Shown piece after piece: positions 24,592 through 63,498 of a stretch of 64,000 nucleotides of DNA. This DNA is from a virus. The position numbers were made by a program, and so were the translations under genes. Position 1 is the stretch's first letter; each line of letters opens with the position of its first letter. Location: IMG/VR virus record IMGVR_UViG_3300010430_000022, positions 10,466-74,465 of that record. One strand, 5' to 3'. The notes beneath the pieces are model-generated. The model did no database searches, was not told the origin of the DNA, and was given only the letters and a program-made list of their open reading frames with translations.

Positions 24592-26280
24592 GTGTATCAA
24601 GCACATACGCTACTGATCCTCGAAGACCTACTTGGGTCTCGGACCTTTCGTCGACTCATCGAGGGCAAAGACCCTGCGCCTGATCCCGAGCGCCAGTCGC
24701 GCCCGGTCATTCCTCCACATCTCCGCACGAGCCATGAGGAGGACACGCACCCAGCGATGAAGCTGCCGGGCCACAAGTTCCCTCAAGCAGTGCATGACGT
24801 CGCGCACTCCATCAAGAAGGCTGGTGGACGCGCGATGATGGTCGGCGGCTACGTCCGCGATACGCTGGAGAAGCATTTCCATGGAGGGGACGAGCCCTCC
24901 AAGGACTACGACATGGAAGTCCATGGGATGCACCCAGATCACCTGGATAAGCACTTGGACTCCATCGGACGAGTGGACAGAGTCGGCAAGGCTTTCGGGG
25001 TGATGAAGCTCACACACAAGAAGCACGACTTTGACATCTCGATCCCCCGCCGAGACAACAAGGTCGGTAAGGGGCACAAGGGCTTCATGCCCGAGCCTGA
25101 TCCGCACATGACCATTGGCGAGGCTGGTCATCGTCGGGACTTCACCATGAACTCGGTGGCGATGGACCCACACACTGGGCATGTCTACGACCCGCACCAC
25201 GGCATCAAGGACATCAAGAGTCGGACGCTACGGGCTACAGACCCCAAAGCGTTTGCTGAGGATCCTCTGCGTATTCTGCGTGGCGCTCAGTTTGCCGCCC
25301 GCAAGAAGATGACGGTTCACCCACACACCATGAAGCTGATGCAGAACGCCGGGCACGAGCTAAAGGATCTGCCTCGTGAGCGTGTTGGTGTCGAGTGGAA
25401 GAAGCTTCTCATGAAGGGCAAGCACCCTGAGCACGGCCTAAAGGTCTTGCACGACTCGGGTGCGCTGAAGCATCTTCACCCTGAGCTTCATGCACTGACA
25501 GACCACCAACACGATCCGCACGATCACACGAAGGGCACTTCGTTTGAGCACACAGGTCGGGCACTGAGCCATGTTGTGCATGCGACTAAGGGGCTGCCCG
25601 ATGACTCTCGCGAATCGATCCACCACGCCACGCTGATGCATAACGTAGGGCGACCGGCAGGTACGGATGACCACGCTTCGGCTGGCTCAGCTATCTCTCG
25701 TTCTACTGGCAAGAGCCAGTTTGATCTGGAGAAGAACGTCGCCACCAAGACTCATAAGCTCGTAGGCGAGCACGGTGCTCCTCACGAGATTCACGAGGCA
25801 CACAAGCGCGGCGAGAACACAGACGCGCACATTCGCCATCTCGCTCACCGCCTAGGACCGTCGAAGCCAACGGCCCACGACGGCTCGTCTATTGGTGATC
25901 TTCTACACGTCGCTCACGCGTCACATGTGGCAGATGGTAGTGGTGACCCTCACCACGCTGGTGACTTCTTGCGCAAGCGTGCCAAGGCACTTGGGGTTCA
26001 CGACGGGCCTCAAGAGCGGCTTGTTACCGGCAAGCACCTGAAGGCAGATGGTGTCAAAGGCGGACGTCGTATGGGAAGAGCCTTGGACCACGCCCACCAG
26101 AGGCAGTTGGATGGTGATGTCACTACTCACGAGGAGGCGAAGAAGGCTGCACTCGATCACCTCGCACACCTCGAACGTGAAGAGGGGCCTGAACAAGGGA
26201 AGAAGCAGAAGGTCAATCGTCGTAAGAAGCCTCCATTGGCGGAGAACTACTCGCTCTACGCACGCGTCTTTAGTGCTTAG
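24592..26280 (+). CDS. cca: CCA-adding tRNA nucleotidyltransferase (class II), His-rich
   Basis: 'VGGYVRD', 'DYDME', 'RRDFTMNS', 'DPHHG..D', 'EDPLRILRGAQFAAR', 'ERV..EWKKLL'. Confidence 0.9.
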   Translation: MYQAHTLLILEDLLGSRTFRRLIEGKDPAPDPERQSRPVIPPHLRTSHEEDTHPAMKLPGHKFPQAVHDVAHSIKKAGGRAMMVGGYVRDTLEKHFHGGDEPSKDYDMEVHGMHPDHLDKHLDSIGRVDRVGKAFGVMKLTHKKHDFDISIPRRDNKVGKGHKGFMPEPDPHMTIGEAGHRRDFTMNSVAMDPHTGHVYDPHHGIKDIKSRTLRATDPKAFAEDPLRILRGAQFAARKKMTVHPHTMKLMQNAGHELKDLPRERVGVEWKKLLMKGKHPEHGLKVLHDSGALKHLHPELHALTDHQHDPHDHTKGTSFEHTGRALSHVVHATKGLPDDSRESIHHATLMHNVGRPAGTDDHASAGSAISRSTGKSQFDLEKNVATKTHKLVGEHGAPHEIHEAHKRGENTDAHIRHLAHRLGPSKPTAHDGSSIGDLLHVAHASHVADGSGDPHHAGDFLRKRAKALGVHDGPQERLVTGKHLKADGVKGGRRMGRALDHAHQRQLDGDVTTHEEAKKAALDHLAHLEREEGPEQGKKQKVNRRKKPPLAENYSLYARVFSA

Positions 26281-26469
26281 ACGGAGGCGCTCTGCACTTG
26301 ATGTACGCCTCGGCAACCTCGTGGTAAGTTGTAGGGTAACCACGGGGAGATCGCGCTATGATGCGCCCGTAAGCCTAGCCTTGTTGATTCTGGTCCCACC
26401 GAAGGGAGGTGCGGAGGAAACGGCGGCTTGCGGAGGTCGTCGTTTCTTTCGTTCTCGTAAGGTCCCCTC

Positions 26470-27141
26470 ATGAGCCATATCCCTAGCCTGCACGACCGGA
26501 TCTTTGAGGGATTCTCCGACGACGTCAAGCACGCACTGGCCGTCGGAATGCAGACACCCGAACGATTCGGTGGTCCACCCGAGAAGCCCAAGGAGCGTAA
26601 GAAGCCCAAGCCGACTCTGAAGAAGCCGACTCTGAAGAAGCGGCTCAAGAGGTTTGCTACGGACGCCGGCCGAGTCATGTTCCCTCGCAGCGAGGACGTG
26701 ACCCTCTTCGACCAAGTTTTCACGGAGTCCGACAAGAAAAAGCTAGGTTTCGTAGGAAGCGTCAAGAAGATCGCCAAGGACGCCCACGAGTATGCGGATG
26801 TTTCAGATCCCACACACCCTTGGAATAAGATCCTCGTCACAGCGAAGAAGTGGTCTGACCAGGGCGGCGCGCTCGCCGGGAAAGATCAGGCGAAACCTCA
26901 AGCCAAACTTGAGAAAAAGGCTGGGTGGGGGTCTGAAGCCCTGAAACGTAAGAGTTCTTCGAAGGACAAGAAAAGCTCTAAATCAAAACACCCCATGAAG
27001 GTGCTCAGGAAGAGCATGCGGGATGCTCAACGCGACCGCGACCGCGTCAGCCGTGGGGCTCAGGCGCCTCAGGGTGTTGGTCGCTCGAACCTAGGGGCCC
27101 CCGCAAAGACCACCTCGAAGCAACCTTCTGCCAAGAGGTAG
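26470..27141 (+). CDS. Lys-rich putative internal protein
   Basis: SLHDRIFE and TLFDQVFTE motifs. Confidence 0.55.
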   Translation: MSHIPSLHDRIFEGFSDDVKHALAVGMQTPERFGGPPEKPKERKKPKPTLKKPTLKKRLKRFATDAGRVMFPRSEDVTLFDQVFTESDKKKLGFVGSVKKIAKDAHEYADVSDPTHPWNKILVTAKKWSDQGGALAGKDQAKPQAKLEKKAGWGSEALKRKSSSKDKKSSKSKHPMKVLRKSMRDAQRDRDRVSRGAQAPQGVGRSNLGAPAKTTSKQPSAKR

Positions 27142-27267
27142 CGGATCTTATTCCGATACCCCATAATCCACTTACTTTGGTGGCACTACTACTGATCCAA
27201 TTCGGGTTCGTAACCTCTTTCCTCGCATGTAGAATGAGGTAACCATCCGACTCGGCGGAGAGACCTC

Positions 27268-27636
27268 ATGGCGACAGGCAGCAAAACAGTCAAGTTTCAG
27301 GGCAGCTTCTCGGTGCATGACGCATCGAACGTCGCCTCTCCCAACAAGCCGATCAAGGATCTCACGCTCACCGTGGCGCAGGTTCAGTCGTCGGACCCGA
27401 TGTGCATCGCTGGTGCTTCGGTGGACTTCCAAGTTCCGTTCGGTGCGATCACCGGCGCAAAGCGGATCTACATCAAGACTGACCAGTCGGTCACGATTAA
27501 GTTCAACCAGGACACTGATCTCGGGTTCTCCTGGAAGGGCGAAGGTGTGGTTCCTTCTGAGGACGGGATCACTGCGCTCTACATCACTACAGGTCCGAAC
27601 GACACCAACGTCGAGATCGTTATCGCAGGAGACTAG
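27268..27636 (+). CDS. Hypothetical beta-rich virion protein
   Basis: GGAG RBS; tightly coupled three-gene set. Confidence 0.55.
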   Translation: MATGSKTVKFQGSFSVHDASNVASPNKPIKDLTLTVAQVQSSDPMCIAGASVDFQVPFGAITGAKRIYIKTDQSVTIKFNQDTDLGFSWKGEGVVPSEDGITALYITTGPNDTNVEIVIAGD

Positions 27637-27638
27637 CC

Positions 27639-28699: not shown

Positions 28700-29533
28700 G
28701 TGACAATGGCGACTGAGTTTCAAACGTGGAAGAAGGCTGTAGAGATCCCTACGGATCGTCTCGTCTTCACTGACTGGAACTGTAACGAGATGAGCCAGGA
28801 GAAGCTGGCTCATCTCCAAGCAGAGATCGAGAACGATGAGGATCCAGAGGATCCTCATTTCGACGAGCCACTTCAGGTGATTCCGATTGCGGAGTCCGAA
28901 GGAAAGTTCCTCGTCGTAGGTGGTGAGCACCGCACCAAGATCGCTCGCTCGCTAGAGATGCCAGCAGTCCCATGCGTGATCCGCAACGATCTGTCGAAGA
29001 TGTCCAGGAAGGATCTGATCCTCTGGTCGGTTCGTCGCAACAACCTTCGTGGTCGAATCAACGCAACCAAGTATGCCGAGATGGAAGCCGAACTGGTTAA
29101 CCACCACGGCATGACCTCTGAGGCAGCGCGGCGGTCCATGCTGATCGACGGTGACCTGGCCAAGGCGCTTCGGGCGACTCTGGCAGTCCGGGCGAACGAG
29201 AACAACGAGTCAGACGATGGGCACGACGGTAAGCGCCAGTTCGGCGACGACGTGGCAGACGCTCGTGAGGATCGACGCTCCAAGGAGGAGCTTCTCTCGG
29301 CGCTCAAGATGGCCGAGCAGGACGTGCTCCTCGACTCTGCCGATACCGTCAAGCATGGCTACCTGTTCTTCGCTCAGGGCAAGAACGGTCAGATGCATCT
29401 GGTCGTCGACGAATCCCTGGAGCTACACGCACTCATCAAGCAGATGGTTTCCACCTGCAAAGGCAATGACGCGAAGGTCGACGACTTCTTGACCAACGCG
29501 ATTAGCGCTCAACTGACCTCGGAGACAAAGTGA
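28700..29533 (+). CDS. ParB/Srx-like N-terminal domain protein
   Basis: 'WNCNEMS', 'FDEPLQV', 'VVGGEHR..IA', 'N.LRG'. Confidence 0.8.
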   Translation: MTMATEFQTWKKAVEIPTDRLVFTDWNCNEMSQEKLAHLQAEIENDEDPEDPHFDEPLQVIPIAESEGKFLVVGGEHRTKIARSLEMPAVPCVIRNDLSKMSRKDLILWSVRRNNLRGRINATKYAEMEAELVNHHGMTSEAARRSMLIDGDLAKALRATLAVRANENNESDDGHDGKRQFGDDVADAREDRRSKEELLSALKMAEQDVLLDSADTVKHGYLFFAQGKNGQMHLVVDESLELHALIKQMVSTCKGNDAKVDDFLTNAISAQLTSETK

Positions 29534-32500
29534 TGCAGGCACAGATGAACAGAACCCGTGCTACTCACAGCCGCCCCTCGATGAACATGTGGGAGTGGTT
29601 CGACATGTGGGCCCTCTATGAGGAGGTCACGCGTCGCTTCGGTTCGAGGAACCTGTTCGAGGATGAGGACGAGGAGGATTACTCGGACGAGGAGAAAGCG
29701 AAGCATCACGACTTCTACGTGAAGCACTTCAATGAGGTGCTCCACAACCACAACAGGATGTCTGCCAAGGACAGCAAGGATCGCTTGGCGCAGGTTGGTC
29801 AGTGGGCGTCGGAGCCATCGTCGAAGGTCGACATCAGGGCCGGACTGCGTCCACGACAAGGACGAACCGAGCGGGGCAGGGTCGTCCCTGTGGGCAAGGA
29901 CCCAGTAACCAAGAAGAAGCAATTCGTGAGCAGCGAAGCACCTGGCTTCGGCGAGAAGGCTCGCGACTTTCGTAAGCGTCGGAGCGAGTGGCACAAGGGT
30001 CTTCGCGCTGATGGTCACGATCTGAAGTCTGCTCACTCGGCCGCCCAGATCGTGACCGCAGTGAGCGGTAGTAAGCACGGTCACATTCTGCTCAGGGCCG
30101 CGAAGTCTCTCGCAGGCGACCCGCACAAGTCACCTGAGCGTCACAGAGGCATTTCGAGCACGACGGCTAAGAGCGTGCCTGGTGGTGGCAAGACCTCGCC
30201 TGATGAAGATAAGCACTTCATCGGTGCCACGCTGATGACGCGCCACGGAGAAGCGCAGTCGGCGCACACCAACGAAGAGACCAAGCGGCTCCACGCTCGG
30301 CTCAAGGCACGTCGCGATCACGCTGCTTCGAAGGTCGAACCACTGGAGCCACGCGGAGAGGAAGAAAGCGAAGAAGCCTGGGGGAAGCGTGCTAGCGCCC
30401 ACGACTCCAAGGTCAATAAGGCTGAAAGTGATATCGAATCAAACGATAAGCACGGCTATGCCTCTATCTCGACCGATACGAATCACACAGAAGACCAGGT
30501 GAAGGCGCACCGCCAGCGCATCTACGGTAAGCGCGCTGGAGCACACCTCTCGCCGATTCGCGACCTGGCTAGACAGGCTATGGCTCACATCGAGCCTAAG
30601 AAGGACAAGGACGGGAACATCACTGGCCCCGGCGGCAAGCTGAGTCATGAGTGGGTTGCACGAGCAGCGAAGCAACTTGCGATTCAGCGTCGTAGCTCTC
30701 ACGAGACAAGCAAGAAGGCGGACTCTTTCAGGAAGGCCGTCGACACCGGTCATCGTTTGGGCGGAGATGACGAAGACCAGGCGAAGGGGATGGCAGGGAT
30801 CTCTCAGTCCTCCGGCAAGCTTGCCACTCGCGTGAAGACAGGTGAAACGGTCAATCCCAAGTGGCACCACCCTGCCTCAAAACGAGCCAAGGATACTGGC
30901 ATCACCATGCGGGGGCGCGATGGTAGCCCGAGTGCCGAAGCGCACGAAGCAGCTAACAAGGCTCTAGGAGTAACAAGAAAGAGAGCAAGCATCGATATTG
31001 GAACGGCGATCAAGACGCTTACCGACAAGGGCCACGACCCCAAGTCGATTGCCCGGTTGCTCCAACACCCACACGGACAAGTGATGCGGAGGCTGGCCGG
31101 CTTCTCACCTACTGGTGCCGAGAGAGGCGGCGGCGCGTCAGGCAAACGTGCTGGTGCGCGAGAGAAGCGCGATCAACAACCCGTCAAGTCTGCGATGCGC
31201 GCAGAGCGCGAGGCCAAGATCGCCAAGGGCAAGTCTCCTACTGAGGCCGTCAAGGCCGACCTTCACCGTCTCTATCCGAAGCGAGACGAGGTTGGAGAGG
31301 GGCAAGACGACGAGAATCCGACAGGATCCTTCGCAGGCCGCATCCACAAGATGTATCACGGCGAAAAGGACGCAAAGGGAAACTGGATCTCCCAGCCGAT
31401 GCCTCACAAGAAGGATGTGCAGGCCGATGAGGAGCAGCCAGACAAGCTAGGCGTACGCATTACACCTGGCACGGCACGCGCTGGCTTCACCGCTGGCAGA
31501 AACATTTCAGGTGCGAGTCCTCTCGAACACCCTGGCAAGTTCGACGAAGAGGCCGCTCACAAGCAGCACGACGGAGACGAGAAGAAGATCGAGCACGCTC
31601 GTCGATCTCACGAGACGCGCCTGGACCGTTTCCACGACAGGATGGCAGACAACCACGACGGTGTTCACAAGGCCATGGATAAGATCCTCGCGAACGTGAA
31701 GGATCGAAACCACCACCTGACTGTTCAGCATCGTGAACATCACGACGCACTCAAGCTCGCCAAAAACACAAACAACGAAAGGGATGTAGAGGAGCTAACG
31801 GCTCATGGCAAGAAGATGAACATCATGGATGACATCATCGATCACCACATGAACCACGCTCAGCACGATCCTGACGTGAAGAAGGCTTTGGGCGGCTCTC
31901 TCGCTCGTGTTCGCTCAGGACTCACCAACATCCAGGCTCGTCTGCGAAAGCATGGTGAGCACTCTATGGCGGCTCGAATCCTTCGTGGGGGCGCATCGCA
32001 GAAGGCTCGTGGTGGTGAAGAGCGCGGTAAAGGTCGCCCAGGTGACCCACTTTCGCGTCAGCGCGTTCGCGTTCCCGGCAGCGAGTCTGGTGCCGGTGGT
32101 GACATCGAGTCTCCAACAAAGCACAAGCCTGAGCAGTACATCGAGCCGACTACACAAACCAGAAAGGTCAAAATGCGCACAGCGCGCGGCGAGCCTGCTG
32201 GTACCGCAAACAGGCCCGTGCCTTCCGTGGCGACGCGAATCCTCGACAAGAGAGCGCAGGCCGCTCGCACCGCCAGCGCTATGGCGAAGCATGCTGCGTC
32301 GAAGGCTGCTAAGGAAGCCGCGAAGAGTCGTGAGGACGCCCAGGAGCGGGCAACTATGCAGCGACCTGGTGGCGCAGGTGGCCCAATTGGACCAAAGCCG
32401 ATTCCTGGCGCCGATAAAGAGGCGGAGAGGCGACGAGCGCGCGGCGACGCTGCTATGGCGGCCAAGAAGTCTCTCGCTGATAAGGTTGCTGCTGCACCGT

Positions 32501-57818: not shown

Positions 57819-57882
57819 TTCGCTCTGCTATCCACGGACTTTGGTTGGTGTTAGACTGGCTAGATAGCCCAGGAGACGTCGC

Positions 57883-58233: not shown

Positions 58234-58531
58234 TGCGAGTTACGCAATTTTGAGCATGCGACTAGACATTGCCACATCGTGGCGCTACGCTTAGTTTCCA
58301 GTAGGAGCGACATCTTCAGTGACGTCAACCACCCACATTCAACCCGAACGCTTGCAGCGCCTATCCGGCGCTCGCGGTCAGGGTTCGTCTGTGGAGGGTC
58401 TGCTCCACTCCTTTGGCCGCATTGCCGAATCCAAGCCGATGGATACCTGCGCGTATCCCCGACTTGGATGGTCGGCGAATACGCACAGGCGTTCGCGGCT
58501 CTAGAGGAACCTCACAACAGGAACTTCAAGA

Positions 58532-58569
58532 AAGCCGCAGCGCCAACGCGCTCGCGGCTTCTTTCGTTT
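58532..58569 (+). terminator. Terminator/attenuator upstream of the tRNA array
   Basis: AAGCCGC-AGCGC-CAAC-GCGCT-C-GCGGCTT followed by CTTTCGTTT. Confidence 0.65.
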
Positions 58570-58687
58570 GCATAACTCTACTCAGGACACGAAGAAAGGA
58601 AAAAAACGACGACAGTGACAGGCCGGTGAGGCTTCCTTGTATATGGGGGCAGATCACAACTGACACAGGAGTGAACGAAACACATAA

Positions 58688-58768
58688 CCGTCTGGGGTCC
58701 ACCAAGTGGTGGTGCCGCGCTGTAAACGCGGTCTTTCGAGCAACGTGGTGCGATTCCACGCAGGCGGA
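58688..58768 (+). tRNA. tRNA-Tyr(GTA)
   Basis: CCGCG-CTGTAAA-CGCGG; long variable arm. Confidence 0.75.
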
Positions 58769-58776
58769 TTACACAT

Positions 58777-58844
58777 AGGTCGCGATCTAGGATCGGGCTG
58801 GATTCCAAATCCGGCCTTGCAGGGTGCGATCCCCTGGCGGCCTG
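58777..58844 (+). tRNA. tRNA-Trp(CCA), reduced D arm
   Basis: CTGGA-TTCCAAA-TCCGG. Confidence 0.7.
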
Positions 58845-58959
58845 ACTGAAAGAAGATGAGCCTCGGCTCTACATCTCGGTGTCGAACACTCGTGTCGGCA
58901 TCTAGCCCTGTAGGACGAAGCGATTCAGACGTCACTTGCCCTTTCACAATTCGGTGCTT

Positions 58960-59042
58960 GCCAGTCTGGCGGAACAGCAGACGCGCTACTTTCAAAAGGT
59001 AGTGTCCTTCGGGGCGTCCGGGTGCAAATCCCGGGACTGGCA
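58960..59042 (+). tRNA. tRNA-Leu(CAA)
   Basis: CTACT-TTCAAAA-GGTAG; long variable arm. Confidence 0.88.
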
Positions 59043-59047
59043 TTAAC

Positions 59048-59116
59048 TCGGCTGAATGCCAGCTACGACTACATCTTCCAAATATGACATGTCGTGGCGA
59101 CTCACTCGTCAGTCGA
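59048..59116 (+). ncRNA. Y-RNA-like element D (minimal; TTCCAAA loop)
   Basis: TCGGCTGAATGCC..CTACATC..CACTCGTCAGTCGA. Confidence 0.7.
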
Positions 59117-59122
59117 ACACAC

Positions 59123-59196
59123 GCTGCCGTAGCCCAACTAGCAGAGGCGTCTGGTTCAGAACCAGAAGGTTGGAGGTGCAAATCCTCTCGGCAGCA
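59123..59196 (+). tRNA. tRNA-Leu(CAG), short variable loop
   Basis: TCTGG-TTCAGAA-CCAGA. Confidence 0.8.
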
Positions 59197-59200
59197 AAGA

Positions 59201-59272
59201 GCAGGAGGACGGTGGTGCAATTCCACCCGACTGGCGGAAGTCGGTCTGTAGTTCAGTAAGAAGAACACCTGC
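59201..59272 (+). ncRNA. Circularly permuted tRNA-like RNA
   Basis: GCAGG - T arm GGTGG-TGCAATT-CCACC - closed acceptor CGACT/AGTCG - D arm - CCTGC. Confidence 0.6.
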
Positions 59273-59276
59273 GTTT

Positions 59277-59360
59277 GCCACTGTGATGGAACTAGCAGAC
59301 ATGCCTGCCTCAGAAGCAGGTGCCTTAACGGGCGTGGGGGTGCAAATCCCTTCGGTGGCA
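59277..59360 (+). tRNA. tRNA-Leu(CAG)
   Basis: CCTGC-CTCAGAA-GCAGG; long variable arm. Confidence 0.88.
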
Positions 59361-59361
59361 T

Positions 59362-59434
59362 AGCGGAATAGAGCAGTAGTAGCTCGCGAGTTTCATAAGC
59401 TTTGAGGACGTCGGTGCGAATCCGGCTTCCGCTA
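59362..59434 (+). tRNA. tRNA-Met(CAT)
   Basis: AGCGGAA/TTCCGCT; loop TTCATAA. Confidence 0.8.
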
Positions 59435-59444
59435 AAACAACCAC

Positions 59445-59527
59445 GGTCCCGTGGTGGAACAGCAGACACGCAACATTGAGGGTGTTGTGCTCGAAAGAGC
59501 GTGCAGGTGCAAATCCTGTCGGGACCA
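59445..59527 (+). tRNA. tRNA-Leu(GAG)
   Basis: CAACA-TTGAGGG-TGTTG; long variable arm. Confidence 0.88.
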
Positions 59528-59529
59528 TC

Positions 59530-59612
59530 GACCGAATGCCAGTTGTGACTACATCAACTGAAAACTGATGCTGGGGGAACCCAGCGCTCGTCACGGCATA
59601 CACTCGTCGGTC
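59530..59612 (+). ncRNA. Y-RNA-like element E (CTGAAAA loop)
   Basis: GACCGAATGCC..CTACATC..CACTCGTCGGTC. Confidence 0.72.
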
Positions 59613-59624
59613 ACAATTCAACGA

Positions 59625-59697
59625 CGCGTCCTAGAGCAACGGTAGCTCGCGAGCCTCATAAGCTCTGAGGATTCTGGTTCGATTCCAGAGGACGCTA
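59625..59697 (+). tRNA. tRNA-Met(CAT), unpaired C1
   Basis: Loop CTCATAA; canonical GG and TTC. Confidence 0.85.
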
Positions 59698-59698
59698 T

Positions 59699-59773
59699 CG
59701 CGGAGTGGAGCAGTCAGGTAGCTCGGTGGGCTCATAACCCGCAGGTCACGAGGTTCGAATCCCGTCTCCGCTA
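59699..59773 (+). tRNA. Initiator tRNA-fMet(CAT)
   Basis: C1 mismatch; GGG/CCC anticodon stem. Confidence 0.88.
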
Positions 59774-59891
59774 TACAAGCCTGTGAAGACCACCTTGCGC
59801 AGGCAGGGGCTAATCTCACCAGTGGTGGTCACGAACGAGATTCTGGATCTGGTTTTGGTAGCCGTGCGGCTACGAGGGCGCAGATCCGCAC

Positions 59892-59962
59892 GGGGCCCTG
59901 GTGAAACAGGATCACACTTGTCTGGCAGACAAGAGTTAGGGGTGCGACTCCCCTGGGCTCCA
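59892..59962 (+). tRNA. tRNA-Ala(GGC)
   Basis: G3:U70; CTTGT-CTGGCAG-ACAAG. Confidence 0.88.
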
Positions 59963-59967
59963 TACAC

Positions 59968-60039
59968 GCTCCTGTAGCTTAGGCAGCAGAGCACATCCTT
60001 GGTACGGATGAGACCCCAGTGCAAGTCTGGGCAGGAGCT
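59968..60039 (+). tRNA. tRNA-Thr(GGT)
   Basis: CATCC-TTGGTAC-GGATG. Confidence 0.85.
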
Positions 60040-60106
60040 TGGGTCGGCCTCTAGGATCATGGGGCATGTCAAGGGGGTCAATGCCACCCCCGACCAGAAC
60101 ACACAT

Positions 60107-60179
60107 AGCGTGTGGGCCATACGAGTGCGGCACACCTTTCATACGGGTGAGATACCGGGTGCAAGTCCCGGACACGCTA
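60107..60179 (+). tRNA. tRNA with CAT anticodon (Met or Ile2)
   Basis: CACCT-TTCATAC-GGGTG. Confidence 0.75.
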
Positions 60180-60211
60180 TCAGACGAACCGGTTGATCGC
60201 CGGGGAGTCGG

Positions 60212-60317
60212 TGAGGATTAGTGGACTAACAACTACGTCGAAGCTGGACGCGGTAGGTCGGTTGACTCTGAATCAGCAGGTGCGGGTGAGGGCGGCAGCC
60301 CAATGCCCGCCCCTCAT
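60212..60317 (+). ncRNA. tRNA-Gln(CTG)-like RNA with D-arm and T-loop insertions
   Basis: GTTGA-CTCTGAA-TCAGC; T stem GCGGG/CCCGC enclosing an extra hairpin; TGAGG/CCTCA. Confidence 0.5.
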
Positions 60318-60318
60318 T

Positions 60319-60391
60319 GGATCCGAAGCTAAACGAGTGAAGCACCCGGTTCTTACCCGGGGGATACAGAGTGCAATTCTCTGCGGATCCA
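60319..60391 (+). tRNA. tRNA-Lys(CTT)
   Basis: CCCGG-TTCTTAC-CCGGG. Confidence 0.85.
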
Positions 60392-60406
60392 TCAGTTGAA
60401 CTATCT

Positions 60407-60479
60407 GGATCGGTAGCTCAGCCAGTAGAGCACGAGTCTGAAGAACTCGGAGTCGGGGGTGCAAATCCCTCCCGGTCCA
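60407..60479 (+). tRNA. tRNA-Phe(GAA)
   Basis: CGAGT-CTGAAGA-ACTCG. Confidence 0.88.
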
Positions 60480-60482
60480 TAC

Positions 60483-60555
60483 CAGGGATTAGTGTTTAAC
60501 AGCAGCACGAGGCATTTGGGATGCTTTAGTCGAGGTGCAACTCCTCGATCCCTGA
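60483..60555 (+). tRNA. tRNA-Pro(TGG)
   Basis: AGGCA-TTTGGGA-TGCTT. Confidence 0.85.
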
Positions 60556-60559
60556 TTAA

Positions 60560-60633
60560 CGGAGCGTGGCGCAGTCTAGTAGCGCGCTGGTCTGGGGGAC
60601 CAGAGGTCGCAGGTGCAAATCCTGTCGCTCCGA
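60560..60633 (+). tRNA. tRNA-Pro(GGG)
   Basis: CTGGT-CTGGGGG-ACCAG. Confidence 0.9.
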
Positions 60634-60689
60634 TTGGAACGCGAGCGGTCAGCCGAGGTGCTGATCGGCCCTAGTGGCTTCCAACGCAA

Positions 60690-60760
60690 GGATTCGTGGT
60701 GTAACAGAAGCATAGGACCCTGAAAAGGTCGCGGCAGGGGTGCAAATCCCTTCGAATCCA
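60690..60760 (+). tRNA. tRNA-Phe(GAA), second copy
   Basis: GACC-CTGAAAA-GGTC. Confidence 0.8.
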
Positions 60761-60890
60761 TTCGTCGAATGCCAGGTAGGACTACATCATTTGGTTCGAG
60801 TCCAATCTGCTCCTTCGGGAGTTAGCCCCGTGGCGGGGACATCGACCTCACGGTCGGTGGATTGATCGTCCGCCAACTCTCGTCGACGAA
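60761..60890 (+). ncRNA. Y-RNA-like element F (YrlA-type permuted tRNA module)
   Basis: TTCGTCGAATGCC..CTACATC; T arm TTGG-TTCGAGT-CCAA; TTCG-closed stem; D-like arm; ..CTCTCGTCGACGAA. Confidence 0.78.
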
Positions 60891-60893
60891 CAC

Positions 60894-60965
60894 CGGTCTA
60901 TGGTGAAACAGTTATCACGCGTCTCTGATAAGGACGAGTTCTAGGTGCGATTCCTGGTAGACCGA
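60894..60965 (+). tRNA. tRNA-Ile(GAT)
   Basis: CGTCT-CTGATAA-GGACG. Confidence 0.85.
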
Positions 60966-60969
60966 TTTT

Positions 60970-61043
60970 GGCCATGTAGCTCAGATAGTCAGAGTACCGC
61001 CCTGTCACGGCGGGGGTCGGGGGTGCGAAACCCCTCATGGTCG
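60970..61043 (+). tRNA. tRNA-Asp(GTC)
   Basis: CCGCC-CTGTCAC-GGCGG; G73. Confidence 0.88.
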
Positions 61044-61044
61044 T

Positions 61045-61098
61045 CGGGTGAATACGAAAGTGGTGAGAGCCCACGCAGGTGAGATCCCTGCCATCCGT
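61045..61098 (+). ncRNA. Truncated tRNA-like RNA
   Basis: CGGGTG/CATCCG stem plus GCAGG-TGAGATC-CCTGC T-like arm. Confidence 0.35.
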
Positions 61099-61102
61099 TT
61101 AT

Positions 61103-61175
61103 GGTCCTGGAGTTCGTGTAGCAGAATAGCCGCCTGTCGAGCGGAAGGTTGTGGGTGCAACTCCCATCAGGACCG
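61103..61175 (+). tRNA. tRNA-Asp(GTC), second copy
   Basis: CCGC-CTGTCGA-GCGG; G73. Confidence 0.8.
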
Positions 61176-61242
61176 TTTGGAAGCCCAGACCGGGCTAGTC
61201 TTTCTGGCTGGAACAGCCAGCCCCAAGACCGGTGAGGGAACC

Positions 61243-62082
61243 ATGGGAACGCTAGAAGAGGCCGCGAAGGTAATCGAGGAGGCAGACGCTCTCCTCATAA
61301 CGACCGGCGCAGGAATGGGAGTCGACTCAGGACTCCCCGACTTCAGAGGGAGCCAAGGCTTTTGGAAGGCTTATCCGCCCTACAAGAAGCTGAACGTGTC
61401 CTTCTCCGAAATGGCGAGCCCGGATTGGTTCAAGAAGGACCCTGAGTTCGCTTGGGGCTTCTACGGCCAGAGACGCAACCTCTACCGGGTGACGGAGCCG
61501 CACAACGGCTACGCGATCCTCAAGAGGTGGGCCGAGGAGAAGCCGAAGGGCTACTTCGCGGTCACGTCGAACGTCGACAACGCCTTCCAGAAGGCCGGCT
61601 TTGACGCGTCTCGAATCGCTGAGGTGCATGGGACCATCGAATGGAATCAGTGCATGACCTTCTGCGGCGCCAGGATCACTCCGGCAGGCCCAGAGGAGAT
61701 TGAGGTCGACACAGGGACAATGAGGGCCTCAGGGGCCCTACCAACGTGTCCTGGCTGCGGTGAGGTCACGAGGCCGAACATCATGATGTTCGGGGACCCC
61801 TACTTCGACAAGAAGCGTCAGGAGGAGCAACTCGAACGCTTCTACGCGTGGCTCAAGGAACTCAAGACAGGCGAGGCCGACCTCGTCGTAGTCGAGTGTG
61901 GAGCCGGGGTTGAGATCCCGACGATCAGAGACATCTCCGACCAGATCGGAATCGACGAATGTGGAGGAACCCTGGTGAGGGTGAACCCAGTCCACTCCCG
62001 AGCGCGGTGGGGCAGTCATGTCAGCCTGCACTTCGGGGCGCTTGAAGCCTTGGAAGGGATCGAGCAAGTGATCGCAGTTTGA
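61243..62082 (+). CDS. Sir2-family (sirtuin) NAD-dependent enzyme
   Basis: 'GAGMGVDSGLPDFRG', 'TSNVD', 'EVHG', Cys pairs, 'RPNIMMFGD', 'ECGAG..IPTIR', 'RVNP'. Confidence 0.92.
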   Translation: MGTLEEAAKVIEEADALLITTGAGMGVDSGLPDFRGSQGFWKAYPPYKKLNVSFSEMASPDWFKKDPEFAWGFYGQRRNLYRVTEPHNGYAILKRWAEEKPKGYFAVTSNVDNAFQKAGFDASRIAEVHGTIEWNQCMTFCGARITPAGPEEIEVDTGTMRASGALPTCPGCGEVTRPNIMMFGDPYFDKKRQEEQLERFYAWLKELKTGEADLVVVECGAGVEIPTIRDISDQIGIDECGGTLVRVNPVHSRARWGSHVSLHFGALEALEGIEQVIAV

Positions 62083-62149
62083 ACACACGCGGGTTAGCCC
62101 CGCATGAAGGTCTCTTCGCCGCCCTCGGGAGGCGTTGAGACTGAGCATT

Positions 62150-62223
62150 GGCCCTATCGTCTAGTCTAGTTAGGACGTCAGCCTCTCAAGCTGAAAACCC
62201 GGGTGCGAATCCCGGTAGGGTCA
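62150..62223 (+). tRNA. tRNA-Glu(CTC)
   Basis: TCAGC-CTCTCAA-GCTGA. Confidence 0.9.
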
Positions 62224-62231
62224 TCAGTTTT

Positions 62232-62303
62232 CCCTCTATAGCTTATGAAGTAGAGTTCCCGCCTGTCACGCGGAGGAACCGAGTGCAAGTCTCGGTAGAG
62301 GGG
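62232..62303 (+). tRNA. tRNA-Asp(GTC), third copy
   Basis: CCGC-CTGTCAC-GCGG. Confidence 0.8.
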
Positions 62304-62339
62304 TCTTGTGGGGAAGGGGTGAAAGCCCTGACCCTGCTT

Positions 62340-62411
62340 GCAGGTGTAGCTCAGTAGTAGAGCGTCACGTTGCCAACGTGAGGGCCGTCGGTGCGAATCC
62401 GATCACCTGCT
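62340..62411 (+). tRNA. tRNA-Gly(GCC)
   Basis: TCACG-TTGCCAA-CGTGA; U73. Confidence 0.9.
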
Positions 62412-62415
62412 TCAC

Positions 62416-62488
62416 GCGGTCGTAGTGTTTAACAGCAGCACGCGAGCTTGCCATGCTCGAAGTTGGGGTGCAACTCCCCACGACCGCT
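62416..62488 (+). tRNA. tRNA-Gly(GCC), second copy
   Basis: CGAGC-TTGCCAT-GCTCG. Confidence 0.88.
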
Positions 62489-62491
62489 TCT

Positions 62492-62563
62492 GCTTCCATA
62501 GTGTCAACAGCAGCACGACTGTTTCGTAATCAGTTAGTCTCGGTGCAACTCCGGGTGGAAGCT
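62492..62563 (+). tRNA. tRNA-Thr(CGT)
   Basis: ACTG(T)-TTCGTAA-(T)CAGT. Confidence 0.82.
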
Positions 62564-62693
62564 TTCAGCGAATGCTTTGGTAGGAGTACATCCTGACTGA
62601 TAATCAAGACGACTCGGGCGCAACTCCCGGGGCCCCCACTACGAGGGGGTGCGTAGTGCTAGTAAACCCTCTTGCCTACTACTCGTCGCTGAA
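62564..62693 (+). ncRNA. Y-RNA-like element G (permuted tRNA-Ile(GAT)-like module)
   Basis: TTCAGCGAATGC..TACATC; TGA-CTGATAA-TCA; T arm; GCCCCC/GGGGGT closed acceptor; ..CTACTCGTCGCTGAA. Confidence 0.78.
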
Positions 62694-62697
62694 CCAA

Positions 62698-62769
62698 GGA
62701 CCCGAAGCATAAGCAGTGATGCACTTGGCTCTTAACCTTGGGAATGGGGTGCAAGTCCCTGCGGGTCTA
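62698..62769 (+). tRNA. tRNA-Lys(CTT), second copy
   Basis: Loop CTCTTAA; GGACCCG/CGGGTCT. Confidence 0.75.
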
Positions 62770-63498
62770 TCCAGCCTTACGCTCAGACGTGTCGATTGAC
62801 TGGATCGAGTGCTTCAGGCCGTGAAGGGCGCTGTTGTCACTGTGCTCCTTCTCCCAGGGCGCCTTGAAGGCGCCCTCCTTATCGAGGGCCTTGAACGGCG
62901 TCGGGTGATCCTTCAGGCTGTGCAGCTTTTCAGCGAAACTGTCAGCTTCCTTCTTCATGCCACCGAGGCGCTTCGCGCTCTCGTCGTCCTTCGGGAAGTG
63001 AGCCCCGCGCTTACGGATCTGATCGAGGGGAGCGTGGAAGTGGGTCACCTTCACATGGTAGCCATGCTTGGCTGCGTGGTGCAGGTAAGGCTTCATCTGC
63101 CAAGCCGCCGTGTTCGTGTTGTCCACGATGACGTGCGGGTGACCAGCAGCCATGTGCTCCGCAGCTTGCTGCTGAGCATGGGCATGAGCCTCGCCGAGCT
63201 TGCTCGGATCAAACGAGGGAGTGCCGCCGGGCTTGTCCGGAGGACCGTAGAGTCCTGGGTGCTTGTCGGCTGAGACCACAGCAGCGCCCGAGTGGTGCTT
63301 TGCGATGTGAGTCGACTTGCCTGACCCAGGTGCGGCGACCATGAAGTGAAGCACCTTCTTTTGCGCAGGCGACGGCTCGTCTGCCTCAAGGAACGGTGAG
63401 TAGACCGCCTCCTGGAGGTTTCGGACATACTTGTCCCGTCGAATGGATTCAACGAGAGGAAGGGTGCGGGAGCGACGGATACGGTCGTGAAGGTTCAT
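62767..63498 (-). CDS. P-loop polynucleotide-kinase-like protein (AAA_33 / N4BP2-like), His-rich
   Basis: 'AAPGSGKST', 'VSAD', 'FDPSKLGEAH', 'VIVDNTN..WQMKPY'. Confidence 0.85.
   Translation of the reverse strand: MNLHDRIRRSRTLPLVESIRRDKYVRNLQEAVYSPFLEADEPSPAQKKVLHFMVAAPGSGKSTHIAKHHSGAAVVSADKHPGLYGPPDKPGGTPSFDPSKLGEAHAHAQQQAAEHMAAGHPHVIVDNTNTAAWQMKPYLHHAAKHGYHVKVTHFHAPLDQIRKRGAHFPKDDESAKRLGGMKKEADSFAEKLHSLKDHPTPFKALDKEGAFKAPWEKEHSDNSALHGLKHSIQSIDTSERKAG

What the first reader, a model, noticed from the sequence alone, without database searches (positions are those of the whole stretch)
24592..63498. Dispersed tRNA end-healing kit (CCA-adding, 2H CPDase, HAD phosphatase, polynucleotide kinase), apparently built for virion delivery
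Seen: four enzymes at 24592, 49417-, 49974- and 62767- cover CCA addition, 2',3'-cyclic phosphodiesterase, 3'-phosphatase and 5'-kinase chemistry. All four carry Glu-terminated N-terminal extensions and are visibly His-enriched, unlike the phage's RNR, dNK and dNMP kinase. Established: these activities heal tRNA broken by anticodon nucleases or CCA-trimming toxins (T4 Pnkp/Rnl1, fungal Trl1). Inference: a pre-made repair kit injected with the DNA could restore translation even when host defence has already cut tRNAs. No RNA ligase is seen in this window.
Basis: partly seen in the sequence, partly recalled or inferred. Interest (0 to 1): 0.9.

Follow-up and report, generated by a model that had tools for sequence, protein, structure and literature searches.

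The report
Histidine-rich tRNA-repair enzymes tagged for capsid
An uncultured T4-like giant phage from marine sediment puts the kind of short tag that phage T4 uses to load proteins into its head onto four histidine-rich RNA-end-repair enzymes, so it probably injects a ready-made tRNA repair kit with its DNA, though no packaging or activity has been measured.

Summary
The four ORFs are a class II CCA-type tRNA nucleotidyltransferase, a 2H phosphoesterase, a "Swiss-army-knife" HAD phosphatase and a polynucleotide-kinase-fold P-loop kinase. They have 8.6-11.7% His; the other genes have a median of 1.9%. Each starts with a 10-26 residue leader ending in hydrophobic-x-Glu (consensus R-T-P-L-L-x-E). 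The strict motif occurs 9 times in all six frames of the 74-kb contig, 8 of them directly after a start codon. Codons differ, so it is a peptide signal. The head module is T4-type: gp20 portal, gp21/S77 protease and gp23 capsid protein. T4-type proteases cut after Glu, and T4 uses a 10-residue leader to load proteins, including the injected enzyme Alt, into its head. Homologues of all four enzymes in other metagenomic phages carry such leaders. In the HAD, 2H and CCA families leader-bearing members are His-rich and leaderless ones are not. Capsid loading is therefore likely (about 0.65-0.7). Injection, tRNA repair and the purpose of the histidine are untested. No RNA ligase lies in the contig, which is only about 26% of the genome. 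This scan had already noted His-rich, tag-bearing enzymes in other uncultured T4-like phages. New here are the leader sequence and a coherent repair set.

The parts
24592..26280 (+). Class II CCA-type tRNA nucleotidyltransferase, 562 aa, 11.2% His. Leader is residues 1-11 (MYQAHTLLILE, 24592-24624), with a second site RRLIE ending at residue 24 (24663). The HD motif is degenerate (HN), and the C-terminus reads SLYARVFSA.
   Evidence: domains; the leader is conserved in P0028/P0032, so the GTG start at 24592 is real, although the database gene call starts at Met56; His replaces residues at about 50 non-conserved columns; HD to HN, distal Asp to Ser.
49417..49977 (-). 2H phosphoesterase (cyclic phosphodiesterase type), 186 aa, 8.6% His. 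Leader MNLRRTPLLIE (49945-49977). Its start overlaps the stop of the HAD gene by 4 nt.
   Evidence: tRNA_lig_CPD E 2.2e-4, below cut-off; family; H73xT75 and H131xT133xS135 invariant; model pLDDT 82.5, leader disordered; 2H-fold matches at E about 1e-3, TM about 0.4.
49974..50642 (-). HAD_SAK_1 ('Swiss-army-knife' RNA-repair) phosphatase, 222 aa, 11.7% His. Two-part leader ...SPILE(14) and ...ALLIE(26) (50565-50642), followed directly by the catalytic FDMDGT motif.
   Evidence: 51.6 bits against cut-off 25.6; family; leader versus His correlation.
62767..63498 (-). P-loop polynucleotide-kinase-fold kinase, 243 aa, 9.5% His. Leader MNLHDRIRRSRTLPLVE(17), with further x-E sites at residues 30 and 38 (63385-63498), then the Walker A motif APGSGKS.
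   Evidence: family; invariant G58, G60, K61, D78; model pLDDT 86, residues 1-42 disordered; top matches are C. thermocellum Pnkp, mammalian PNKP, fungal kinases and T4 Pnkp.
20318..22189 (+). Prohead protease of the T4 gp21 family (Peptidase_S77 domain at residues 44-193) with a long C-terminal extension. It has its own N-terminal site NMLVE(32).
   Evidence: phrog_207, E 4e-32; PF03420, E 6.4e-14.
22202..23647 (+). Major capsid protein of the T4 Gp23 family. The roughly 84-residue N-terminal propeptide region contains MIAE, PLLE, FMLE and RLSE sites.
   Evidence: (PF07068, E 5.5e-55).
15718..18126 (+). T4 Gp20-type portal interrupted by a mini-intein. The C-terminal region has five G-L-(Q/E)-E-V repeats, which are cut-type sites.
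   Evidence: (Portal_T4 E 7.9e-48; Intein_splicing E 1.3e-10).
19111..20262 (+). Acidic scaffold-like core protein candidate. Its N-terminus has SLME(14) and NMVE(23) sites.
   Evidence: (sequence) and position between portal and protease. No family hit; the role is inferred.
13976..15025 (+). Three small leader-bearing ORFs upstream of the portal: 13976-14440 (154 aa, 7.8% His, ..RRSLLIFE), 14430-14672 (80 aa, MDLERTPLLLE, very basic) and 14669-15025 (118 aa, MIRQTLLVE).
23747..24580 (+). Basic 277-aa protein between the MCP and the CCA gene, with a second leader style (STLFERIGLAEG; internal SMFDRVFTEG). Candidate internal head protein.
   Evidence: no family hit.
26470..27141 (+). Basic 223-aa protein after the CCA gene, with SLHDRIFEG and TLFDQVFTES motifs. 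Candidate internal head protein.
   Evidence: no family hit.
29530..32949 (+). 1139-aa ORF of unknown family, 5.2% His, net basic, ending ...SLLNRTPLSV. The tag-like motif is at the C-terminus.
   Evidence: no hit in Pfam, PHROGs or the Atlas.
33426..36008 (+). 860-aa polyprotein-like ORF with five DPxxFM(A/G)E sites 76-88 residues apart. Candidate core protein cut into pieces.
50643..50930 (-). 95-aa very basic protein (net charge +27 per 100 aa) with leader MLTRTPLLCE, directly upstream of the HAD gene. Conserved in the related phage L001.
52261..52578 (+). 105-aa basic protein, 9.5% His, with the tag at both ends (MLERTPLLLERDKK... and ...LMRTELLLDHDKKT). Conserved in L001.
57883..58233 (+). 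116-aa protein whose leader MALYTAQTLLVLEGLYG... resembles the CCA enzyme's leader. 0.9% His.
50993..54529 (+). Untagged RNA module, presumably made after infection: LigT-type 2H plus DUF5661 protein (50993-52261, 2.4% His) and Ro60/TROVE-vWA protein (52787-54529, 0.9% His). They serve as an internal control with normal His and no leader.
55421..62769 (+). tmRNA (55421-55836) and an array of about 25 tRNA genes (58959-62769).

Best explanation
The four enzymes are cargo of a T4-type phage head.

Proposed mechanism:
1. Each enzyme is made with a short N-terminal propeptide (consensus x-R-T-P-L-L-[I/L/V]-E, sometimes followed by further hydrophobic-x-Glu sites).
2. The propeptide acts like the T4 capsid-targeting sequence and docks the protein to the scaffolding core of the assembling prohead.
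3. The gp21-family protease encoded 2.4 kb upstream of the CCA gene removes it by cutting after Glu.
4. The mature enzymes stay inside the head with the DNA, alongside a set of small basic internal proteins that carry the same tag, and enter the next host with the genome.
5. In the host, the 2H enzyme opens 2',3'-cyclic phosphate ends, the HAD_SAK phosphatase removes the remaining phosphate, and the CCA enzyme rebuilds the tRNA 3' end. The CCA enzyme's own HD phosphohydrolase site is degenerate.
6. The kinase phosphorylates 5'-OH ends for a ligase not yet found.

What is shown: the domains, the shared peptide tag, the T4-type protease, capsid and portal genes, the conservation of the tag in homologues, and the His enrichment with its link to tag status.

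What is inferred: docking, cleavage, packaging, ejection, RNA substrates and timing.

The dispersed histidine coat is a real compositional adaptation of tagged folded enzymes. Its purpose is unknown. My best guess is a conditional positive charge that lets near-neutral enzymes pack with DNA yet let go of it in the cytoplasm.
For: Head module:
- It is T4-type: Portal_T4 E 7.9e-48, Peptidase_S77 E 6.4e-14 and Gp23 E 5.5e-55.

The tag:
- The strict tag motif occurs 9 times in six frames of 74 kb, 8 of them 4-11 residues after a start codon of an ORF of 75 codons or more.
- Codons differ synonymously and the upstream DNA is not conserved.
- Leader length is mostly 9-17 residues and ends in L/I/V-x-E.
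- The tag also heads small, very basic ORFs like T4 internal proteins, and motif copies occur at C-termini.
- AlphaFold models give confident cores and disordered leaders.

Literature:
- T4-type and giant-phage prohead proteases cut after Glu. Alt is cut at ITE-6 and LTE-619 (PMC5694885).
- gp21 has an LIE-9 site. The T4 CTS is 10 residues and suffices to package foreign enzymes and deliver them into the host (PMC9026906).

Homologues:
- CCA homologues carry LYRTPLxLxE or xQTLLVLE leaders.
- In the HAD family, leader-bearing members with three leader styles have 6.5-12.3% His and leaderless ones 2.2-4.5%.
- The 2H family shows a similar trend, with one leaderless exception at 7.7%.
- The related phage L001 keeps the module and its tags.

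This genome:
- Leader-positive genes have a median of 7.8% His and leader-negative genes 1.9% (p = 0.002).
- The untagged second 2H enzyme has 2.4% His.

Chemistry:
- HAD_SAK_1 is above the Pfam cut-off.
- The kinase model's top matches are RNA/DNA-repair polynucleotide kinases.
- Both 2H motifs are invariant.
- The HD dyad and the distal Asp are lost in the CCA enzyme.
Against: - There is no proteomic, cleavage or activity data, and the phage is uncultured.
- The tag consensus differs from the T4 CTS, and its receptor is unknown.
- Three of the four genes lie outside the head module. The 2H, HAD and kinase genes are on the minus strand within an RNA-metabolism region.
- His enrichment is not universal among tagged proteins: four small ones have 0.9-3.8%. 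The LYRTPL-leader CCA clade has only 2.6-4.4%, so the two traits are linked but separable.
- The 2H assignment is weak by Pfam and Foldseek, and 2H enzymes can also degrade nucleotide signals.
- No ligase is present in the 74 kb, so a full healing-and-sealing pathway is not shown.
- Leader-versus-His comparisons across homologues are not phylogenetically independent.
Confidence: 0.55

Rival explanations
1. The tagged proteins are packaged, but they serve mainly inside the head or as DNA-condensing internal proteins. Alternatively they are ejected but act on targets other than tRNA, such as phage or host mRNA ends or nucleotide immune signals. In that case the 2H enzyme might work like the phage phosphodiesterases that destroy cyclic-nucleotide alarm signals. 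The 'tRNA repair kit' reading would then be wrong even though virion delivery is right.
For: The 2H assignment is generic: Pfam is below cut-off, Foldseek E is about 1e-3, and a phage phosphodiesterase (9q2y) is among the hits. PMC7824862 notes that phage 2H enzymes may target cyclic phosphates as signals. No ligase was found. All tagged proteins are net cationic.
Against: Four chemistries that fit together (cyclic phosphodiesterase, phosphatase, CCA addition, 5' kinase) all carry the tag. The HAD belongs to a family defined by its RNA-repair context. The CCA enzyme has lost the very activities that the 2H and HAD enzymes supply. The genes sit beside a tRNA array, a tmRNA and Ro60.
Confidence: 0.17
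2. The leader is not a capsid address. It is some other N-terminal signal, such as a propeptide keeping enzymes inactive until cut, a degradation or localisation tag, or a tag for another compartment. The enzymes would then work in the cell that made them, as in ordinary jumbo-phage RNA-repair systems.
For: RNA-repair sets are common in jumbo phages with no packaging reported (PMC7824862). Three of the four genes lie far from the head genes. The tag consensus is unlike the T4 CTS.
Against: The only protease seen is the prohead protease, and the leader ends in its family's cut motif. The same tag heads small basic proteins within and beside the head module. Cut-type sites of the same style also occur in the MCP propeptide, the portal tail and a polyprotein-like core protein. 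Distant HAD homologues in other T4-like phages carry leaders of the classic T4-CTS style.
Confidence: 0.15
3. The tag and the histidine enrichment are unrelated features of a phage lineage (for example metal binding or a habitat adaptation of a few horizontally acquired genes), and their co-occurrence is a by-product of shared ancestry.
For: Homologue comparisons are not phylogenetically independent. The LYRTPL-leader CCA clade is barely enriched. Some tagged small proteins have normal His content.
Against: The link recurs in three enzyme families, across leader styles and across GC contents from 28% to 60%. Within the genome, untagged enzymes, including a second 2H, have normal His content. 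His sits at about 50 scattered non-conserved positions rather than in a site or tract.
Confidence: 0.1

Closest known systems
Phage T4 capsid-targeting sequence system (internal proteins IPI-III and the injected ADP-ribosyltransferase Alt, processed by prohead protease gp21)
   Same: The portal, protease and capsid families are the same (gp20, gp21/S77, gp23). There is a short N-terminal leader of about 10 residues ending in hydrophobic-x-Glu, shared by unrelated proteins including small basic ones and enzymes. Motif copies also occur at C-termini, as with Alt. Propeptides contain multiple sites.
   Different: The leader consensus (R-T-P-L-L-x-E) is unlike the T4 CTS. The cargo here is RNA-end-repair enzymes rather than restriction inhibitors or an ADP-ribosyltransferase. 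The cargo enzymes carry a 9-12% histidine coat, which I did not find described for T4 in the papers I could search. Nothing has been shown experimentally.
Jumbo-phage RNA repair systems (tRNA arrays, RtcB or Rnl ligases, polynucleotide kinase, 2H phosphoesterase, 'Swiss-army-knife' HAD, Ro/TROVE) as surveyed in PMC7824862
   Same: The component families and the presumed purpose (reversing host attacks on tRNA) are the same. The same genome also has an untagged LigT-type 2H, Ro60, a tmRNA and about 25 tRNAs.
   Different: In that survey the enzymes are treated as ordinary intracellular gene products. Here four of them carry a head-loading tag and an unusual composition. No ligase has been found, though only 26% of the genome is in hand.
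T4 Pnkp/Rnl1 and fungal/plant Trl1 healing-and-sealing pathways; the E. coli multifunctional CCA enzyme with an active HD domain
   Same: The end-healing chemistries match: 5' kinase, cyclic phosphodiesterase, phosphatase and CCA addition. The kinase fold is closest to Pnkp/PNKP-type kinases, and the 2H is weakly closest to Trl1/CNPase-type domains.
   Different: The activities are on four separate small proteins rather than fused. The HD domain of the CCA enzyme has lost its Asp residues. The sealing ligase is missing from the available sequence.
His-rich, CTS-tagged enzymes noted earlier by this scan in other uncultured T4-like phages (e1-5863038, e1-5863050, e1-5764374, e1-5652990, e1-5913338)
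   Same: The phenomenon is the same: unrelated enzymes with about 10% His and a Glu-terminated leader in phages with T4-type heads. I saw the same in loci L008-L010: HAD, DUF6267 and a HIGH nucleotidyltransferase.
   Different: Those leaders resemble the T4 CTS itself, whereas this one is a different consensus in a 59% GC sediment phage. Here the tagged set forms a coherent RNA 3'/5'-end repair pathway with firmer domain support.

Membership tests
T4-type capsid-targeted, gp21-processed head cargo | The phage encodes a gp21-family (S77) prohead protease with a gp23-type capsid protein and a gp20-type portal. | tested here: met
   PF03420 E 6.4e-14; PF07068 E 5.5e-55; PF07230 E 7.9e-48.
T4-type capsid-targeted, gp21-processed head cargo | A short N-terminal leader ending in hydrophobic-x-Glu, shared by otherwise unrelated proteins. 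| tested here: met
   8 of 9 motif hits in six frames lie right after start codons; synonymous codon variation; the leader is conserved in homologues.
T4-type capsid-targeted, gp21-processed head cargo | Sequence similarity of the leader to the T4 CTS itself. | tested here: not met
   The consensus x-R-T-P-L-L-x-E shares only the length and the terminal hydrophobic-x-Glu with the T4 leader as quoted. Distant HAD homologues in L008-L010 do carry T4-style leaders.
T4-type capsid-targeted, gp21-processed head cargo | Physical presence of the processed protein in virions and its ejection into the host. | not testable with these tools
Class II CCA-adding tRNA nucleotidyltransferase | PolyA_pol head domain with the catalytic DxD motif, plus the RNA-binding neck domain. 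| tested here: met
   (both domains above cut-off). D105, D107, the RRD motif and the EDxxR motif are invariant or conserved.
Class II CCA-adding tRNA nucleotidyltransferase | CCA-adding specificity, as opposed to A-adding or poly(A) polymerase. | tested here: inconclusive
   the best NCBIfam hit is the CCA addition/repair protein (152 bits), ahead of PcnB (108 bits). All hits are far below equivalog cut-offs.
Multifunctional CCA enzyme with active HD phosphohydrolase domain | An intact HD dyad and distal Asp. | tested here: not met
   HN instead of HD (D in 52 of 60 homologues) and Ser instead of the distal Asp (D in 50 of 56). No PF01966 hit.
2H phosphoesterase (cyclic phosphodiesterase) | Two HxT/Sx motifs on a 2H fold. 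| tested here: met
   H73xT75 and H131xT133 are invariant; the top matches are LigT-like, CNPase and a fungal 'RNA kinase' entry (6u05), though weak (E about 1e-3, TM 0.36-0.44). Pfam tRNA_lig_CPD is below cut-off.
HAD_SAK_1 (Swiss-army-knife RNA repair phosphatase) | Pfam model above the gathering score, and the HAD DxDGT nucleophile motif. | tested here: met
   51.6 bits against 25.6. D37, D39 and G40 are invariant.
Polynucleotide 5'-kinase (Pnkp/PNKP clade) | P-loop kinase fold closest to polynucleotide kinases, with Walker A and a conserved Asp. | tested here: met
   4jt2/4gp7 at E 4e-8, then 3zvn, 9drz and 2ia5. G58, G60, K61 and D78 are invariant; weak Pnkp hits. Substrate not tested.
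Complete healing-and-sealing tRNA repair system (T4 Pnkp+Rnl1, Trl1, RtcB-type) | An RNA ligase (RtcB, Rnl1 or Rnl2 type). | tested here: inconclusive
   no match in the 74-kb contig. The record is about 26% complete, so absence from the phage is not shown.

The most novel reading that the evidence does not exclude
Across T4-like phages, a dispersed histidine coat marks folded enzymes that are co-packed with DNA in the head and ejected into the host. It may act as a conditional polycation that binds DNA in the capsid and releases it in the cytoplasm. This phage uses that route to pre-load a tRNA 3'-end repair pathway (2H, then HAD, then CCA) plus a 5' kinase, so translation can be rescued from tRNA-cutting abortive-infection systems before any phage gene is expressed.
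Probability: 0.3. Interest if true: 0.85.

Novelty: new variant of a known kind. Interest (0 to 1): 0.68.

Why it matters
Host defences that cut tRNA act early and can stop a phage before it makes any protein. Repair enzymes delivered with the DNA would be a counter-defence that does not depend on translation. I found no report of that for RNA repair in the papers I could search.

The tag also gives a sequence-only way to predict the injected proteome of uncultured T4-like phages. The link between tag status and about 10% histidine holds in three enzyme families and over a wide GC range. It points to an unexplained physical requirement for proteins that travel inside a DNA-filled capsid, which could matter for engineering phage heads as protein-delivery vehicles.

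Tried and rejected
- Close relatives: megablast of 10 kb against phage records found nothing. The viral-contig scan with the CCA enzyme found no relatives. The HAD-family scan found only 27-29% identical relatives.
- Leader as a DNA/RNA element (promoter or repeat): rejected. Codons vary synonymously and the upstream DNA is unrelated.
- Shared 'TAGACTGG' upstream of two tagged genes: 2 hits against 1.3 expected, which is chance.
- Selective avoidance of internal protease sites: the site density is low (1.1 per 100 aa against 2.8 in leaderless CCA homologues, and zero in mature 2H and HAD). This is fully explained by lower Glu/Leu/Ile content, not by site-specific avoidance.
- His tracts or metal-site spacing: adjacent HH pairs are depleted and there is only a mild i+3 and i+5 excess, so no clear metal motif.
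- Ligases: RtcB, Rnl2-type and Rnl1-type families are absent from the contig, which is uninformative at 26% completeness.
- DUF6267: this tagged, His-rich neighbour of the HAD in L008/L009 is absent from this contig. It has no PDB sequence relative and falls in a PHROG of unknown function. Its 'ligase-like' label from earlier notes was not tested.
- PDB phmmer with the 2H, HAD and kinase proteins found nothing.
- The protein Atlas gave no usable hit for the 1139-aa ORF.
- Sequencing runs: only marine-sediment DNA runs hold part of the stretch, the best with 0.30 of the sampled words. No RNA holder is listed.
- Literature searches for His-rich packaged proteins or virion-borne RNA-repair enzymes returned no such report.

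Full report
WHAT THE SEQUENCE IS. The window is the last 64 kb of a single 74,465-bp IMG/VR virus record that is linear and about 26% complete by CheckV. The whole genome is therefore probably near 280 kb. GC content is about 59%. No phage record matches it at nucleotide level. The best capsid-protein match in the phage collection is a 595-kb uncultured phage at 33% identity. Parts of the sequence occur in marine-sediment metagenomes.

The head module is T4-type throughout:
- a Gp20-type portal interrupted by a mini-intein (15718-18126; Portal_T4 E 7.9e-48, Intein_splicing E 1.3e-10);
- a 623-aa protein with a Peptidase_S77 (gp21) domain (20318-22189; E 6.4e-14);
- a Gp23-type major capsid protein (22202-23647; E 5.5e-55).

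THE FOUR ENZYMES.
- P0001 (24592-26280, +) has the PolyA_pol head and RNA-binding domains above Pfam cut-offs. It matches the phage tRNA nucleotidyltransferase PHROG at E 1.3e-64, and is nearest the 'multifunctional CCA addition/repair protein' in NCBIfam, ahead of PcnB.
- P0003 (49974-50642, -) is a HAD_SAK_1 phosphatase (51.6 bits against a cut-off of 25.6) with the DMDGT nucleophile motif.
- P0004 (62767-63498, -) is an AAA_33 P-loop kinase. Its AlphaFold model (pLDDT 86) matches the kinase domains of C. thermocellum Pnkp (E 4e-8), mammalian PNKP, two fungal kinases (9drz, 9d8a) and T4 Pnkp best.
- P0002 (49417-49977, -) is the weakest call. Pfam tRNA_lig_CPD is at E 2.2e-4, below cut-off, and Foldseek matches to LigT-like, CNPase and a fungal 'RNA kinase' entry (6u05) have E about 1e-3 and TM about 0.4. 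Both HxT/Sx motifs are invariant in its family.

THE LEADER IS A REAL, SHARED PEPTIDE SIGNAL. I searched all six frames of the 74-kb contig for T-[PLI]-[LP]-[LIVMC]-[LIVMC]?-E. This gave 9 hits, of which 8 lie 4-11 residues after a start codon at the head of an ORF of 75 codons or more. The codons for T, P, L and E differ between copies and the upstream DNA is unrelated. The conservation is therefore at the peptide level, not a promoter or repeat.

Besides the four enzymes, the tag heads several other ORFs: 13976-14440, 14430-14672, 14669-15025, 50643-50930(-), 52261-52578 and 57883-58233. Most of these are small and strongly basic. A copy also sits at the C-terminus of ORF 52261 and of the 1139-aa ORF 29530-32949. 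A second leader style (S/N-L-F/H-D/E-R-I/V-F-x-E-G) is seen on the basic proteins flanking the capsid and CCA genes, and at the start of the kinase.

Cut-type sites of the same kind (hydrophobic-x-Glu) also occur elsewhere:
- the capsid propeptide has four;
- the portal tail has five G-L-(Q/E)-E-V repeats;
- an 860-aa ORF has five DPxxFM(A/G)E sites.

The database gene call for the CCA enzyme starts at Met56 (P0005). However, homologues P0028 and P0032 align through the leader, so the GTG start at 24592 is correct. In the two models the leaders are disordered while the cores have pLDDT above 90.

WHY THIS POINTS TO THE CAPSID. According to PMC5694885, T4 and giant-phage prohead proteases cut after Glu. 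The injected T4 enzyme Alt is cut at ITE-6 and at LTE-619, and propeptides often hold several sites. According to PMC9026906:
- the T4 capsid-targeting sequence is the first 10 residues of IPIII;
- targeting and processing determinants are separable;
- fusing it to foreign enzymes is enough to package them and deliver them into the host;
- gp21 itself has an LIE-9 site.

Here the leaders are mostly 9-17 residues, several end in L-I-E, and the protease belongs to the same family. The tag is shared by enzymes and by small basic proteins like T4 internal proteins, and the CCA gene lies just downstream of the capsid gene. This is circumstantial but coherent. I put capsid loading at about 0.65-0.7.

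THE TAG IS CONSERVED IN OTHER PHAGES. Among the closest metagenomic homologues of the CCA enzyme, 14-15 begin with LYRTPLxLxE or xQTLLVLE leaders. Some also carry motif pieces at the C-terminus. Leaders of the R-[TSEQR]-P-L-L-x-E type are found on 11 full-length HAD homologues and 7 2H homologues. Close kinase homologues have VFME, DLVE or MNLFERLFE leaders. A 10-kb contig of a sister phage (L001) keeps the order Ro60, small His-rich protein with the motif at both ends, LigT-DUF5661, 95-aa tagged protein, HAD, 2H, dNK, with all tags in place.

THE HISTIDINE ENRICHMENT AND ITS LINK TO THE TAG. His content is 11.2, 8.6, 11.7 and 9.5% in the four enzymes, against 0.9-4.0% in 14 untagged proteins of the same window. 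Those include RNR, dNK, dNMP kinase, a second (LigT-type) 2H enzyme and Ro60. Over 61 likely genes, leader-positive ones have a median of 7.8% and leader-negative ones 1.9% (Mann-Whitney p = 0.002).

In the CCA enzyme the excess is +9 percentage points over the homologue median. It is spread over about 50 non-conserved columns, where homologues have E, R, K, Y, D, L and others, and L, E, I, V and F are depleted. The histidines are dispersed: adjacent pairs are under-represented, with a mild excess at i+3 and i+5.

By family:
- HAD: members with any of three leader styles have 6.5-12.3% His. These include 27-29% identical homologues in low-GC T4-like contigs L008-L010, whose leaders look like the T4 CTS. 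The four leaderless members have 2.2-4.5%.
- 2H: tagged members have 5.0-10.3%. Leaderless P0146 and P0147 have 4.5% and 3.6%, though leaderless P0145 has 7.7%.
- CCA: every homologue with 5% His or more carries a leader variant, is N-terminally truncated, or (P0015) has an untypical N-terminus I could not classify. The LYRTPL-leader clade is only mildly enriched (2.6-4.4% against 2.5%).
- Kinase: P0004's 9.5% lies outside the range of 104 remote homologues, whose maximum is 6.7%.

The link is not absolute. Four small, very basic tagged proteins have 0.9-3.8% His. Those proteins carry +5 to +27 net charges per 100 residues at pH 7.5. The enzymes carry only +3 to +7, rising to +12 to +16 at pH 5.5. 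From this I infer, as a guess only, that histidine gives folded enzymes a conditional positive charge for life among packed DNA.

A protease-avoidance explanation is only partly supported. Potential cut sites are 2.5 times rarer than in leaderless homologues, and absent from mature 2H and HAD. That follows from composition alone and does not explain why histidine in particular is used.

PATHWAY LOGIC. The CCA enzyme's HD domain has lost its metal-binding Asp residues. It reads HN where 52 of 60 homologues have HD, and Ser where 50 of 56 have the distal Asp. Its His-rich relatives read HK, HK, HN and HH. In E. coli-type enzymes that domain supplies cyclic phosphodiesterase and phosphatase activity; this comes from my own knowledge and is reflected in the NCBIfam name. 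Separate 2H and HAD enzymes, whose genes overlap by 4 nt and stay adjacent in the sister phage, would supply just those steps before CCA addition.

This gives a ligase-free 3'-end repair route. The kinase implies a 5'-phosphate-dependent ligase that is not in the 74 kb, so it is either elsewhere in the roughly 74% of the genome not in hand, or supplied by the host.

In L008 and L009 the tagged HAD is followed by a tagged, His-rich DUF6267 protein and a tagged, His-rich HIGH-type nucleotidyltransferase. Earlier notes of this scan called a similar protein RNA-ligase-like. I could not test this, and DUF6267 is absent from this contig.

WHAT IS KNOWN ALREADY. Capsid-targeting leaders and injected enzymes are classical T4 biology. 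RNA-repair sets with tRNAs, PNK, 2H, 'Swiss-army-knife' HAD, Ro/TROVE and ligases have been catalogued in jumbo phages (PMC7824862). Full-text searches found no paper that reports RNA-repair enzymes as virion cargo or a histidine coat on packaged proteins. The library is incomplete, so this is weak negative evidence.

This scan had already noted His-rich, tag-bearing enzymes in several other uncultured T4-like phages. Those notes are unverified leads, but my own reading of L008-L010 agrees with them. New here are a different leader consensus, a high-GC sediment phage, and a tagged set that forms a coherent end-repair pathway with firmer domain support.

VERDICT. I file it as a new variant of a known kind: T4-type capsid targeting applied to an RNA-repair set, with an unexplained histidine signature. 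The main uncertainties are the lack of any experimental evidence, the weak 2H call, the missing ligase and the non-independence of the homologue comparisons.

Noticed in passing
window 15718-18126 (+): The T4-type portal gene carries a mini-intein at about residues 77-240 (Pfam Intein_splicing E 1.3e-10, CFTGD... and TPNHKIF blocks). Its C-terminal region has five G-L-(Q/E)-E-V-P-G repeats.
   Followed up: partly
window 52787-54529 (+), 60762-60892 (+), 55063-55135 (+): A Ro60/TROVE-vWA (Rsr-like) protein is encoded near a weak YrlA (Y RNA-like) match inside the tRNA array (26.8 bits, gathering score 69). A lone tRNA-like gene sits next to the tmRNA. This may be a phage Ro-Y RNA particle.
   Followed up: no
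window 55421-55836 (+): A full-length tmRNA gene (Rfam 130 bits) lies in a phage that also carries about 25 tRNA genes (58959-62769).
   Followed up: no
window 61048-62082 (+): A SIR2-family ORF (Pfam E 2e-21) is embedded in the tRNA array. Its 5' part overlaps a tRNA call at 61103-61175, so the true start is probably further downstream.
   Followed up: no
window 33426-36008 (+): An 860-aa ORF has five DPxxFM(A/G)E motifs 76-88 residues apart. It looks like a polyprotein cut by the head protease.
   Followed up: partly
window 29530-32949 (+): A 1139-aa basic ORF with 5.2% His has no family in Pfam, PHROGs or the Atlas and ends in the tag-like sequence SLLNRTPLSV. It is possibly a large cargo protein.
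   Followed up: partly
window 50993-52261 (+): A second, untagged 2H (LigT-type) domain is fused to DUF5661. His content is normal (2.4%). It is conserved, and longer (517 aa), in sister phage L001.
   Followed up: partly
L008 8092-10010; L009 3549-6081: In low-GC T4-like phage contigs, a tagged His-rich HAD is followed by a tagged His-rich DUF6267 protein (about 400 aa). In L009 a tagged His-rich HIGH-type nucleotidyltransferase follows as well. All have T4-CTS-style leaders.
   Followed up: partly
window 42938-43606 (+): A 222-aa ORF has 7.7% His but no RTPLL-type leader. It weakly matches a tail-fibre PHROG (E 1.9e-10). It is the only untagged gene with high His.
   Followed up: no
window 12092-12916 (+) and 38238-39098 (+): A 2OG-Fe(II) oxygenase (E 5e-18) lies just upstream of the head module. 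Elsewhere there is a Clp_N-MazG fusion protein.
   Followed up: no
contig upstream of the window and window 1-12089: A long run of paralogous proteins of about 480-650 aa alternates with tiny ORFs of about 60 aa and Pro/Gly-repeat proteins. It is probably a tail-fibre or adhesin array.
   Followed up: no
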